Assembly (NCBI RefSeq): GCF_006345805.1
Contig: NC_042998.1
Coordinates: forward strand, 17,050,001 to 17,114,000
Direction: 5' to 3'
DNA: 64,000 nucleotides
Origin: Octopus sinensis
Lineage: Eukaryota
This document shows, in pieces, positions 6,031-7,458 of the stretch (position 1 is the stretch's first letter; every line of letters starts with the position of its first letter). The position numbers are program-made.

Positions 6031-7458
6031 GATATATAATATATATATATATATATTTATATATAGAGGGCATAATTATACATACATGCCAGGAGGCATT
6101 ATATATACATGCCGAACGCTAAGAGGGACATCAGTCATTTCTACCAAAAATATTACTAATCCCACCGAATGCAATTTTTCAAAGTAAGACATTTAAAAAT
6201 ATAGGCCTGATCACAGTGATTTCATACTTACGTAATCATCAGCAGGCCTGAATGTATTATAAATAAACAACGACCTGCCTCGCTTAAGCCGAACAGCTAA
6301 CTGATCAACATCAACGAAGCACATGGGTGAGTTTATATATATTACATCCGGGTGAATGGCAAACTTTTACAAAATTGCATTCGGGAGAGGAAAGTTTTTC
6401 GGAATAAAAATTTGCAATTGTTAAGTTTTCCTTATTAAGTAGTTGTCCTTAATTGCAAAATTTTATTCCGAAAAAACTTTTCCTCTCCCGAAATGCAATT
6501 TTGTAAAAGTTTGCCATTCACCCGGATGTAATATATATAAAACTCACCATGTGCTTCGTTGATGTTGATCAGTTAGCTGTTCGGCTTAAGCGAGGCAGGG
6601 TCGTGTTTATTATAATACATTCAGGCCTGCTGATGATTACGTAAGTATGAAATCACTGTGATACAGGCCTATATTTTAAATGTCTTACTTTGAAAATTGC
6701 ATTCGGTGGGATTTAGTAAATTTTTGGTAGAAATGACTGATTGTCCCTCTTAGCGTTCGGCATGTATATATAATGCCTCCTGGCATGTATGTATAATTAT
6801 GCCCTCTATATATAAATTAATATGTTCAATAAGAATAATTATTTTCGAAATTTTTCTCTTATGAGGTTTTTACGTTATCTACCTGACAATTTCTTGTTAA
6901 GTTTCCTTATTAAGTAGTTGTCCTTAATTGCAAAATTTTATTCCGAAAAAACTTCTCCTCTCCCGAAATGCAATTTTGTAAAAGTTTGCCATTCACCCGG
7001 ATGTAAATATATAAACTCACCATGTGCTTCGTTGATGTGATCAGTTAGCTGTTCGGCTTAAGCGAGGCAGGGTCGTTGTTTATTTATAATACATTCAGGC
7101 CTGCTGATGATTACGTAAGTATGAAATCACTGTGATACAGGCCTATATTTTAAATGTCTTACTTTGAAAAATTGCATTCGGTGGGATAGTAATATTTTGG
7201 TAGAAATGACTGATTGTCCCTCTTAGCGTTCGGCATGTATATATATGCCTCCTGGCATGTATGTATAATTATGCCCTCTATATATAAATTAATATGTTCA
7301 ATAAGAAATAATTATTTTCGAAAATTTTTTCTATTATGAGGTTTTTACGCCTATCTACCTGACAATTCTTGTTAAGTTTTCCTTATTAAGTAGTTGTCCT
7401 AATTGCAAAATATATATATATATATATAAATACACATACGCACACACATACAATATTG

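What the first reader, a model, noticed from the sequence alone, without database searches (positions are those of the whole stretch)
6056..7410. Retrozyme-like 475-bp repeat: tandem hammerheads that would release a 474-nt unit RNA, plus an antisense fold-back copy
Seen: a non-coding ~475-bp unit as two tandem copies, the start of a third, and one inverted partial copy, all inside (TA)n. Each tandem copy has an identical type I hammerhead (6623-6670, 7097-7144) with 7-bp stem I, CUGAUGA/GAAA core, GUAA tetraloop and AUA site. A U-U pair replaces the usual first stem II pair. Known: metazoan non-LTR retrozymes are tandem repeats with type I HHRs that yield monomeric linear and circular RNAs, and PLEs form tandem and inverted pLTRs with HHRs. 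Inference: read-through RNA cut after 6663 and 7137 gives a 474-nt monomer that could circularise and be mobilised by a PLE RT. The fold-back would also give ~360 bp of dsRNA. I do not recognise this as a described family.
Basis: partly seen in the sequence, partly recalled or inferred. Interest (0 to 1): 0.88.

Follow-up and report, generated by a model that had tools for sequence, protein, structure and literature searches.

The report
Hammerhead ribozyme tandem repeat, retrozyme-like
A 475-base non-coding repeat carrying a self-cutting hammerhead RNA motif sits as two tandem copies, a stub and one flipped copy inside a TA microsatellite, which fits a known class of small animal mobile elements (retrozymes) and is not new in kind.

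Summary
Window 6418-7411 is a 475-bp tandem repeat of 2.1 copies. An inverted partial copy lies at 6049-6419, and (TA)n brackets the whole block. Both full units carry an identical type I hammerhead at 6623-6670 and 7097-7144. A descriptor scan finds only these two hits in the window. Any hit occurs in 4 of 2000 shuffled windows, and none is as strong. Rfam support is weak: Hammerhead_HH9 scores 16.8 bits against a threshold of 52, and only in a 96-nt search.

The best reading is a non-LTR retrozyme-type element in an octopod-like genome. Its layout (partial tandem, inverted 5'-truncated copy, (TA)n target) matches that described for Penelope-like element (PLE) insertions.

Three caveats apply:
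- Any transcript that includes the inverted copy buries one of the two ribozymes in a roughly 360-bp duplex.
- A diverged second locus (62327-62522) shares the inverted junction and the neighbouring fold-back module but lacks the ribozyme.
- Genome-wide copy number, self-cleavage and RNA circles are untested.

Verdict: a new member of a known kind, of moderate interest.

The parts
5993..6048 (.). (TA)n microsatellite on the left flank of the insertion
   Evidence: TRF, (5993-6065, period 2); sequence
6049..6419 (-). Inverted partial copy of the unit, truncated at its own 5' end. It forms the left arm of the fold-back.
   Evidence: blastn; the repeat finder I1, I2, I4, I9; 0.8% substitutions and 14 one-base indels against copy B
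6203..6249 (-). Hammerhead of the inverted copy. It lacks the cleavage-site A, so it is broken as assembled.
   Evidence: Pairwise comparison; no descriptor hit on the minus strand
6420..6450 (+). Loop of the fold-back and first 31 nt of the direct array. The head-to-head junction lies at a short CAATT overlap (6415-6419).
   Evidence: Sequence; alignment A1
6420..6896 (+). Direct unit B
   Evidence: TRF; alignment A1
6623..6670 (+). Type I hammerhead 1; predicted cut after 6663
   Evidence: Descriptor; Rfam Hammerhead_HH9, 16.8 bits in this register
6664..7137 (+). 474-nt monomer lying between the two predicted cleavage sites
   Evidence: Coordinates of the two sites; folds
6897..7371 (+). 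Direct unit C
   Evidence: TRF; 5 substitutions and 13 indels against B over 468 nt
7097..7144 (+). Type I hammerhead 2; predicted cut after 7137
   Evidence: Descriptor; identical to hammerhead 1, (D4)
7372..7411 (+). 40-nt start of a third unit; possibly a PLE-style 'tail'
   Evidence: Alignment A1; tail of 30-40 bp described in PMC8557442
7411..7531 (.). (TA)n and (CA)n-rich right flank of the insertion
   Evidence: TRF, (7410-7490); sequence
7532..8047 (.). Second fold-back module, with arms about 7581-7790 and 7830-8042 that are 71% alike. The arms carry a decayed core resembling a minimal hammerhead. It ends in (TA)n.
   Evidence: blastn; alignment A3; Rfam
62327..62522 (.). Diverged relative of the unit: a short inverted piece, a spacer, then the part of the unit 118-232 nt past the cut site. 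It has no hammerhead region and shares the outer inverted breakpoint of 6049.
   Evidence: blastn; alignment A2; the repeat finder I2
62568..62968 (.). Relative of the second fold-back module (79% to 7532-7750), followed by (TA)n
   Evidence: blastn; the repeat finder I1 and I3; alignment A3

Best explanation
This is a copy of a non-autonomous, non-coding retroelement of the animal 'non-LTR retrozyme' type. Its unit is 475 bp and carries a type I hammerhead ribozyme. The host genome looks octopod.

[quoted passage not shown] Cutting probably works best when two motifs pair through their near-palindromic helix III. A host tRNA ligase circularises the monomer. A Penelope-like element (PLE) reverse transcriptase and endonuclease then copies the multimeric or circular RNA into a nicked (TA)n tract.

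At this locus that process left 2 units plus 40 nt in tandem and an inverted 5'-truncated copy head-to-head with them.

What is shown: the repeat anatomy, the complete ribozyme core and helices, the (TA)n flanks, the absence of coding capacity, and the predicted double-hammerhead pairing.

What is inferred: transcription, cleavage, circularisation, and which enzyme inserted the element.

This particular locus is probably a poor source of monomers, because the inverted copy would sequester one ribozyme. It may instead give a long hairpin RNA.
For: Tandem repeat and inverted copy:
- Tandem repeat of period 475, 2.1 copies. Inverted copy at 6049-6419.

Hammerhead:
- The only two descriptor hits in 64 kb lie at equivalent positions of the two full units. 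4 of 2000 shuffled windows give any hit and 0 of 2000 give one as strong.
- In a 96-nt search the top Rfam family is Hammerhead_HH9, aligned full length in the same register.
- Helix I of 7 bp and helix II of 4 positions with a 4-nt loop match the 'canonical' metazoan type I layout of 6 and 4 bp (PMC4209133 passage).
- The U.U pair at the base of helix II is also found in axolotl HHR_Amex2 (PMC7229834).
- Two motifs cofold into a double hammerhead with a 10-bp intermolecular helix III as the minimum-energy structure: -35.3 kcal/mol against 2 x -13.8.

Unit properties:
- GC 33.3%. The longest open frame inside the unit is 51 aa.
- The size falls in the published ranges: 150-450 bp and 51-972 bp (preprint 10.64898/2026.07.22.740005).

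Insertion architecture:
- It matches the PLE description: partial tandem, adjacent inverted 5'-truncated copy, 30-40-bp tail, and a (TA)n bias for Naiads.
- Relatives of the window's own retroelement proteins are best named from octopods. PLEs are annotated in Octopus vulgaris (PMC13282606 passages).

Reality of the inversion:
- The inverted junction recurs at the same breakpoint in a locus that is 78-85% identical. It is therefore ancestral and not an assembly artefact.
Against: - Rfam: 0 matches at gathering scores in the whole window. No hammerhead among 18 matches at E<=10 in 5950-7500. The only hit scores 16.8 bits against a threshold of 52.
- The usually conserved G10.1-C11.1 pair is U.U.
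- The isolated 76-nt motif folds no better than shuffles: z -0.84, and 40 of 200 shuffles fold at least as well. Its minimum-energy fold lacks helix III. The hammerhead fold lies 2 kcal/mol above the minimum.
- The monomer's fold z-score (-4.47 linear; -4.58 circular) is not exceptional here. 2 of 12 control windows of the same contig are as low or lower.
- There is no covariation evidence. The only diverged relative (62327-62522) lacks the ribozyme region.
- That relative shares the outer inverted breakpoint, probably the right junction, and the neighbouring fold-back module. This points to DNA-level duplication of a composite, not to two independent RNA-mediated insertions.
- Only 2.1 copies are present here, and the genome-wide copy number is unknown.
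- No PLE coding sequence was found. 28 ORFs scanned in Pfam gave no GIY-YIG. The nearest RT (10648-11286) has relatives with AP-type endonuclease domains, so it is a LINE.
- In a transcript that includes the inverted copy, one hammerhead is buried.
Confidence: 0.65

Rival explanations
1. This is an ordinary terminal repeat (pLTR) array of a Penelope-like element. Its coding body was lost here or lies elsewhere. The unit would then be no independent non-autonomous family, only PLE ends in tandem and inverted arrangement.
For: - PLE pLTRs carry hammerheads and form tandem and inverted structures in microsatellites.
- The 2026 preprint reports that Xenopus retrozymes are sister to PLE pLTRs.
- The neighbouring fold-back module carries a decayed motif with traits of PLE minimal hammerheads: an extra nucleotide after position 9, a G10.1-C11.1 pair, a 6-bp helix II and a short helix I (one search compared).
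Against: - Metazoan PLE hammerheads are described as minimal, with no helix III, a long helix II and a short helix I. The 475-bp unit has a canonical-style motif: helix I of 7 bp, helix II of 4 positions and helix III of 4 bp.
- No RT-GIY-YIG ORF was found among 28 ORFs scanned. The nearest RT is a LINE.
- The two direct units are complete and non-coding, with the longest frame 51 aa.
Confidence: 0.15
2. This is a fold-back or satellite-type DNA repeat generated and spread by DNA-level processes such as replication template switching, palindrome formation and segmental duplication. The hammerhead-like motif would then be fortuitous or a dead relic with no role.
For: - The Rfam score is far below threshold.
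- The first helix II pair is U.U.
- The isolated motif is not unusually stable.
- The second locus shares the junctions and the adjacent module, as expected for DNA duplication.
- The head-to-head junction sits on a short overlap, as in template switching.
- The contig is full of microsatellites and hairpins: 2 of 12 controls are as structured.
- At 4 hits per 2000 shuffled 64-kb windows, a genome of a few Gb would hold some tens of chance hits to the relaxed descriptor.
Against: - 0 of 2000 shuffles give a motif as strong as the observed one.
- The chance that a fortuitous motif falls in a tandem repeat of retrozyme size, so that cuts release exactly one unit, is much smaller still (my estimate, about 2.5e-5 per 475-bp unit).
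- Helix III is near-palindromic, so the double hammerhead is the predicted minimum-energy dimer. A chance motif need not have that trait.
Confidence: 0.15
3. The tandem and inverted arrangement is an assembly artefact of noisy long reads, for example a chimeric fold-back read or a collapsed or expanded array.
For: The copies differ mainly by one-base indels: 13-14 per pair against 3-5 substitutions. This is typical of unpolished long-read sequence. Palindromes are known to trouble assemblers (PMC8557442 passage).
Against: - The same outer inverted breakpoint is present in a second locus 55 kb away that is only 78-85% identical.
- The loop is the unit's own sequence, not foreign sequence.
- The structure is internal to the contig, with unique flanks on both sides.
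Confidence: 0.05

Closest known systems
Metazoan non-LTR retrozymes (Cervera and de la Pena 2020, PMC7229834): coral 220-240 bp, mussel 350-390 bp, axolotl 330/350 bp
   Same: Non-coding, AT-rich head-to-tail repeats of a few hundred bp. Each unit has a type I hammerhead, so that cleavage releases one unit. No LTR, PBS or PPT. Another mollusc (mussel) is among the described hosts.
   Different: - The unit of 474-477 nt is above the ~170-400 nt RNAs of that paper, though within the 51-972 bp of the 2026 preprint.
- Only 2.1 copies are seen.
- An inverted copy is attached. The passages I read do not mention this for retrozymes: a term search of the 2026 preprint for 'inverted' gave only a reference title.
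- RNA, circles and cleavage are untested.
Axolotl HHR_Amex2 ribozyme (PMC7229834)
   Same: A type I hammerhead with a U.U mismatch at the base of helix II and a short helix III. It is predicted, and for Amex2 shown, to work better when two motifs act as a dimer.
   Different: The sequence is unrelated as far as I can tell; none was available to align. Helix III here has 4 bp with a 3-nt loop, against 2 bp with a tetraloop. Loop-loop contacts could not be assessed.
Penelope-like element insertions and their pLTRs (PMC8557442; PMC4209133)
   Same: Partial tandem plus an adjacent inverted 5'-truncated copy, insertion in a microsatellite ((TA)n for Naiads), a 30-40-bp extra 'tail', and hammerheads in the repeats.
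   Different: There is no RT-GIY-YIG ORF here. The ribozyme of the 475-bp unit is canonical-style, not the minimal helix-III-less PLE type. Naiads, the clade with the (TA)n bias, are reported to lack canonical hammerheads.
Newt and salamander satellite repeats with hammerheads (described in PMC7229834)
   Same: Tandem repeats of about 330 bp, transcribed into monomeric and multimeric RNAs, with hammerheads that need dimer pairing through a weak helix III.
   Different: Those arrays are very large and in vertebrates. Here there is one short array with an inverted copy, in an invertebrate-like genome.

Membership tests
Hammerhead ribozyme, type I (Rfam clan CL00010) | Conserved core (CUGAUGA, GAAA, U-H cleavage site) in a three-helix junction with helix I open | tested here: met
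   Read directly. Descriptor hits at 6623-6670 and 7097-7144 only. 4 of 2000 shuffles give any hit.
Hammerhead ribozyme, type I (Rfam clan CL00010) | Score at or above the curated covariance-model threshold | tested here: not met
   0 matches at gathering score in the window. Best is Hammerhead_HH9, 16.8 bits against 52, seen only in a 96-nt search and not listed in the 1551-nt search.
Hammerhead ribozyme, type I (Rfam clan CL00010) | G10.1-C11.1 pair closing helix II (highly but not absolutely conserved) | tested here: not met
   The pair is U.U in both copies. Axolotl HHR_Amex2 has the same mismatch and still cleaves.
Hammerhead ribozyme, type I (Rfam clan CL00010) | Site-specific self-cleavage | not testable with these tools
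   Needs in vitro transcription of monomer and dimer constructs.
Metazoan non-LTR retrozyme | Head-to-tail repeats of a few hundred bp, each unit with one type I hammerhead | tested here: met
   TRF gives period 475 and 2.1 copies. There is one motif per full unit, 474 nt apart.
Metazoan non-LTR retrozyme | Non-coding, no LTR/PBS/PPT, GC below 50% | tested here: met
   The longest frame within the unit is 51 aa, and GC is 33.3%. No LTR-like direct terminal repeats apart from the tandem units themselves. PBS and PPT were not searched for specifically.
Metazoan non-LTR retrozyme | Monomer RNA predicted to be stable and highly self-paired | tested here: inconclusive
   z is -4.47 linear and -4.58 circular with 65% of bases paired. 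However, 2 of 12 control windows of the contig score as low or lower.
Metazoan non-LTR retrozyme | Many dispersed arrays in the genome | not testable with these tools
   No eukaryotic genome collection was available. The window holds one array and one diverged partial relative.
Metazoan non-LTR retrozyme | Expressed as linear and circular monomer RNAs | not testable with these tools
   No transcript data were available.
Metazoan non-LTR retrozyme | Co-occurrence with autonomous PLEs in the same genome | not tested
   No PLE was found in the window. PLEs are annotated in Octopus vulgaris, but the species of this window is only inferred.
PLE pLTR (terminal repeat of a coding Penelope-like element) | Flanks an ORF encoding RT plus GIY-YIG endonuclease | tested here: not met
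   28 ORFs were scanned in Pfam with no GIY-YIG. The RT at 10648-11286 has relatives with PF14529/PF03372, which marks a LINE. Only ORFs of 70 aa or more were scanned: 28 of the 138 that passed my complexity filter, out of 228 in all.
PLE pLTR (terminal repeat of a coding Penelope-like element) | Minimal type I hammerhead: no helix III, long helix II, extra nucleotide after position 9 | tested here: not met
   The 475-bp unit has a helix III of 4 bp, a helix II of 3 bp plus U.U, and no extra nucleotide (one search compared). The neighbouring module 7532-8047 does show these traits in decayed form.
PLE-type insertion architecture | Partial tandem with an adjacent inverted 5'-truncated copy, in a microsatellite | tested here: met
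   for the anatomy; for the published description.
PLE-type insertion architecture | 30-40-bp tail at one end | tested here: inconclusive
   The array is two units plus 40 nt (7372-7411) if the head-to-head junction is taken as the unit start. The passages I read do not say what sequence a PLE tail consists of.

The most novel reading that the evidence does not exclude
The locus is a preserved footprint of PLE-type integration of a retrozyme. A non-coding hammerhead unit was copied from a multimeric or circular RNA into a (TA)n nick, with a template switch at a short overlap producing the inverted 5'-truncated copy, and with a 40-nt tail. That would be direct structural evidence, in a cephalopod, that the PLE GIY-YIG/RT machinery mobilises retrozymes.

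Together with the adjacent fold-back module bearing a decayed PLE-style minimal hammerhead, it would define an undescribed composite non-autonomous PLE derivative. Its built-in hairpin of about 365 bp would act as a double-stranded RNA source that silences its own family.
Probability: 0.25. Interest if true: 0.55.

Novelty: new member of a known kind. Interest (0 to 1): 0.35.

Why it matters
If confirmed, the finding would have three consequences.
- It would add a cephalopod-type genome to the hosts of hammerhead-bearing retrozymes. My two literature searches pairing hammerhead or retrozyme with octopus, cephalopod or squid terms found no such report. Supplementary tables of the survey papers, which I could not open, might list one.
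- It would give a clean example in which a retrozyme array shows the tandem, inverted and microsatellite insertion signature of Penelope-like elements. This bears on the current proposal that animal retrozymes are non-autonomous PLE derivatives.
- It would give a natural locus where a ribozyme array is fused to its own antisense copy. That would let one test whether such fold-backs feed small-RNA silencing of the family.

None of this is new in kind.

Tried and rejected
C/D-box snoRNA reading of 6621-6672: the Rfam rows snoR77Y (15.9 bits, E 0.89) and snR60/Z15 (12.9 bits, E 9.1) score below the hammerhead row and far below their thresholds. The 48-nt motif has no exact D box. Rejected.

microRNA precursor hits (for example MIR8007, 86.7 bits against 195, at 6327-6549): all are below gathering scores. 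They sit on the palindrome centres and arise because any long hairpin scores with these models. Rejected.

tRNA-derived origin: ARAGORN found 0 genes in the window.

PLE coding sequence nearby: I scanned 28 ORFs in Pfam, chosen from the 138 of 228 stop-to-stop frames of 70 aa or more that passed a complexity filter. The only retroelement hits were these:
- zf-RVT and RVT_1 at 10.3-11.3 kb;
- rve, RVT_3 and DUF7047 at 40.7-42.3 kb.
Only DUF7047 is above its curated cut-off. Three other weak rows (ADK_lid, SAWADEE, DUF4199) are below their cut-offs and I take them as noise. The other 110 frames were not scanned.

Hammerhead in the second fold-back module: no hammerhead row at E<=10 in 7530-8050, 62300-62980 or 62735-62860. 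The 91-nt search 7860-7950 gives Hammerhead_3 at 13.6 bits, E 1.4, truncated. I keep it only as a note.

Fold stability as evidence: weakened by my own controls.

Not checked:
- Genome-wide copy number, other arrays, conservation or covariation of the ribozyme, and similarity to PLE pLTRs. No eukaryotic genome or repeat library was on hand.
- Supplementary files of PMC7229834 and PMC4209133, which may list species and ribozyme families. These were closed.
- Structure and complex prediction, the protein atlas and the representative-protein search. They were not used because the feature is non-coding.

Papers, and what I saw of each:
- PMC7229834: outline, Results parts 1-2 of 3, and the Discussion.
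- Preprint 10.64898/2026.07.22.740005: outline with abstract, Results part 1 of 2, and passages.
- PMC8557442: passages.
- PMC13282606: passages.
- PMC7761336: passages.
- PMC4209133: passages.
- PMC5785218 (Lunse et al. 2017): not held. I know only its title, from a reference list.
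Full report
WHAT IS THERE. Tandem Repeats Finder reports 6418-7411 as a repeat of period 475 with 2.1 copies, 95% matches, 3% indels and score 1829. It reports (TA)n at 5993-6065 and 7410-7490. A blastn of the unit 6664-7137 against the window gives 7 alignments:
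- the unit itself;
- its neighbours 7138-7411 (94.6%) and 6418-6663 (97.2%);
- two minus-strand pieces, 6419-6210 and 6209-6049 (96.3% and 95.7%);
- two weaker pieces at 62407-62522 (78.2%) and 62366-62327 (85.4%, minus).

The layout is therefore: (TA)n; an inverted partial copy at 6049-6419; a 31-nt loop at 6420-6450; direct units at 6420-6896 and 6897-7371; a 40-nt start of a third unit at 7372-7411; then (TA)n/(CA)n. The arms 6049-6419 and 6451-6823 are 93% alike over 789 alignment columns. The head-to-head junction lies on a short overlap (CAATT, 6415-6419) that both copies could claim. The unit has 33.3% GC against 34.5% for the window, and the longest open frame inside it is 51 aa.

THE HAMMERHEAD. 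Read directly, 6623-6670 and 7097-7144 each have:
- a 7-bp helix I;
- CUGAUGA;
- a helix II made of a U.U mismatch plus 3 bp closed by GUAA;
- GAAA;
- a helix III of 4 bp (counting A15.1-U16.1) with a 3-nt loop;
- an AUA site.
The cuts fall after 6663 and 7137, which are 474 nt apart.

My descriptor required helix I of at least 5 bp, helix II of at least 3 bp with a first mismatch allowed, helix III of at least 3 bp, and an exact core. It finds only these two sites in 64 kb on both strands. One of 300 and 4 of 2000 dinucleotide shuffles of the window give any hit. None of 2000 gives one with helix I of at least 7 bp and helix III of at least 4 bp.

Rfam is much less favourable. There are no matches at gathering scores in the window. 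No hammerhead appears among 18 matches at E<=10 in 5950-7500.

The isolated 76-nt motif is not unusually stable. Its z-score is -0.84, 40 of 200 shuffles fold at least as well, and its minimum-energy fold lacks helix III. The hammerhead fold costs -11.0 kcal/mol against a minimum of -13.0. Two motifs together, however, fold into a double hammerhead as the minimum-energy structure, with a 10-bp intermolecular helix III around a central U.U: -35.3 against 2 x -13.8 kcal/mol.

This fits what is published. Metazoan type I hammerheads have helix I of about 6 bp, helix II of about 4 bp, and a weak, palindromic helix III that favours action as dimers in tandem repeats (PMC4209133 passage; PMC7761336 passage). 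The axolotl retrozyme ribozyme HHR_Amex2 has a U.U mismatch at the base of helix II. It cleaves 22% in an hour as a monomer and much better as a dimer (PMC7229834 Results). The U.U pair is thus a known variant, not an anomaly.

THE MONOMER RNA. The 474-nt monomer folds to -118.3 kcal/mol as a linear molecule, with z -4.47 and 0 of 100 shuffles as good. As a circle it folds to -111.6, with z -4.58 and 65% of bases paired. The minus strand gives z -3.9. Among 12 other 474-nt windows of the same contig, two score as low or lower (-7.77 and -4.83). In this repeat-rich DNA the value is weak evidence.

THE COPIES ARE NEARLY IDENTICAL AND THE ASSEMBLY LOOKS NOISY.
- Units B and C differ by 5 substitutions in 468 aligned nt and by 13 short (1-2-base) indels.
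- The inverted copy differs from B by 3 substitutions and 14 indels.
- The inverted copy differs from C by 3 substitutions and 13 indels.
This indel-dominated pattern is what unpolished long reads produce, so the real copies are probably about 99% identical. One of the indels removes the A at the cleavage site of the inverted copy's hammerhead (minus strand, 6203-6249). As assembled, that ribozyme cannot pair its helix I in register and gives no descriptor hit. Whether the deletion is real needs raw reads.

THE FOLD-BACK AND ITS CONSEQUENCE. As RNA, 6049-6823 folds into one hairpin of -599.1 kcal/mol, with z -56 and 0 of 20 shuffles as good. In the minimum-energy fold of a transcript 6049-7420, the inverted copy pairs with unit C (357 nt) and 47 of 48 nt of hammerhead 2 are buried, while hammerhead 1 is free. 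During transcription the nearer unit B might be captured instead. Either way only one ribozyme is free, so a read-through transcript from upstream would not release the 474-nt unit. A transcript starting inside the array (6420-7420) leaves helices I and II of both motifs formed. I therefore think this locus is a poor monomer source. The active arrays, if any, lie elsewhere.

A SECOND, OLDER LOCUS. At 62327-62522 lies a relative that is 78-85% identical. It consists of a 40-nt inverted piece, a spacer, and then a direct piece that matches the unit from 118 to 232 nt past the cut site. The part that holds the hammerhead is absent. The alignment shows that its inverted arm and the inverted copy at 6049 stop at the same point and run into TA-rich sequence, while the direct copies continue. 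The inverted breakpoint is therefore ancestral, which argues against an assembly artefact.

Both loci are followed by a second fold-back module:
- 7532-8047, with arms 71% alike;
- 62568-62968, with arms 79-88% alike.
The two modules are 79% identical to each other, and each ends in (TA)n.

Shared junctions and a shared neighbour are what DNA-level duplication of a composite gives. Two independent RNA-mediated insertions would not give them. I cannot explain why the three copies at the first locus are then about 99% alike. Arm-to-arm conversion, recent local duplication, or a composite that moves as a unit are all open. This is the main point that does not fit the simple retrozyme story.

A DECAYED MINIMAL HAMMERHEAD NEXT DOOR? 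The four arms of the second module share a conserved stretch (alignment A3). It reads as follows:
- a short helix I strand;
- the CUGAUG(A/C) core;
- one extra purine;
- a 6-bp helix II that opens with G-C and closes with a 4-nt loop;
- GAAA;
- a 2-bp helix III with a 2-nt loop;
- a U-C site;
- a partial helix I partner.

[quoted passage not shown] No copy is intact:
- one has only A9 changed to C (62750-62795, minus);
- one has G5 changed to C and U16.1 changed to A;
- one has C3 and A9 changed and no helix I strand;
- one keeps CUGAUGA but has lost helix II and helix I pairs.
The helix III letters are not palindromic, so the dimer route would be poor. Rfam gives no hammerhead row at E<=10 in three searches. 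It gives only Hammerhead_3 at 13.6 bits, E 1.4, truncated, in a 91-nt search. I rate this as a lead, at roughly even odds, and not as a finding.

CONTEXT AND HOST. There is no PLE coding sequence. Of 228 stop-to-stop frames of 70 aa or more, 138 passed a complexity filter, and I scanned 28 of them in Pfam. The retroelement hits were:
- zf-RVT and RVT_1 at 10.3-11.3 kb;
- rve, RVT_3 and DUF7047 at 40.7-42.3 kb.
No GIY-YIG was found. The RT at 10648-11286 has 41 relatives at E<=1e-8, many of them with AP-type endonuclease domains (PF14529, PF03372), so it is a LINE. The best organism-named relatives of the window's retroelement proteins are octopods: Octopus bimaculoides at 79% identity, Argonauta hians at 54-64% and Octopus sinensis at 66%. 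The host is probably an octopod; I did not go further. PLEs are annotated in Octopus vulgaris (PMC13282606 passages).

COMPARISON WITH WHAT IS KNOWN. Animal non-LTR retrozymes are short tandem repeats. Reported sizes are 150-450 bp with RNAs of about 170-400 nt, and 51-972 bp in the 2026 preprint. [quoted passage not shown] Described hosts include corals, a mussel, an axolotl and, by bioinformatics, many invertebrate phyla. PLEs are proposed as their mobilisers or as their source.

PLE insertions are described as partial tandems with an adjacent inverted 5'-truncated copy, a 30-40-bp tail and a microsatellite bias, (TA)n for Naiads. The present locus has all four of these anatomical traits, although the meaning of the 40-nt stub as a 'tail' is uncertain. 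It meets the sequence-level criteria for a retrozyme. It fails only the curated Rfam threshold and the G10.1-C11.1 pair, and the latter has a published precedent. Expression, copy number and cleavage could not be tested.

LITERATURE CHECK FOR CEPHALOPODS. A search for 'hammerhead ribozyme' with 'octopus' found 5 papers, 4 listed, none about an octopus ribozyme by title. A search requiring any 2 of the terms retrozyme, cephalopod, octopus, squid and Penelope-like listed 20 of 4,989 papers. Among those 20, the only one holding 'retrozyme' is PMC8557442, which concerns Naiad PLEs. The O. vulgaris repeat paper has 0 occurrences of hammerhead or ribozyme. These searches do not cover supplementary tables.

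VERDICT. The repeat and its hammerheads are real and not a chance pattern. The most likely identity is a retrozyme-type, PLE-related non-autonomous element (confidence 0.65). Rivals are an ordinary PLE pLTR remnant (0.15), a DNA-level fold-back repeat with a fortuitous or dead motif (0.15), and an assembly artefact (0.05). It is a new member of a known kind. Interest is 0.35.

Noticed in passing
window 7532-8047 and 62568-62968: A second fold-back module follows the hammerhead repeat at both loci. The two modules are 79% alike and each ends in (TA)n. Their arms share a decayed motif with the traits of PLE minimal hammerheads: an extra nucleotide after position 9, a G-C pair opening a 6-bp helix II, a short helix I and a tiny helix III. 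No copy is intact, and Rfam gives only one truncated 13.6-bit Hammerhead_3 row.
   Followed up: partly
window 62327-62522: A diverged partial relative of the 475-bp unit. It has the same outer inverted breakpoint as 6049, but a short spacer stands in place of the ribozyme-bearing centre, as if a long palindrome had lost its middle.
   Followed up: partly
window 6049-7411 (copies compared with each other): Differences between copies are dominated by one-base indels: 13-14 per pair against 3-5 substitutions. This suggests an unpolished long-read assembly, so single-base features here, including the missing cleavage-site A at about 6209-6210, should not be trusted without reads.
   Followed up: partly
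window 40000-42300, minus strand: A GC-rich stretch (53% against a 34% background) holds LTR-retroelement pol fragments (rve, RVT_3, DUF7047) split over several frames. The best named relative is an Octopus bimaculoides protein at 79% identity.
   Followed up: partly
window 9728-11289, plus strand: LINE fragments (zf-RVT, RVT_1). Their relatives carry AP-type endonuclease domains, and the best named relative is from Argonauta hians.
   Followed up: partly
window about 2317-2465, 24139-24404, 43980-44246 (minus), 63187-63300: Frames at several places translate to very similar peptides, visible in the ORF lists. This points to a short dispersed repeat, possibly SINE-like, present at least four times in the window. 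ARAGORN finds no tRNA-like gene.
   Followed up: no
whole window: (TA)n, (CA)n and related microsatellites are very dense. As a result, many random 474-nt windows fold far better than their shuffles: 2 of 12 have z at or below -4.58.
   Followed up: no
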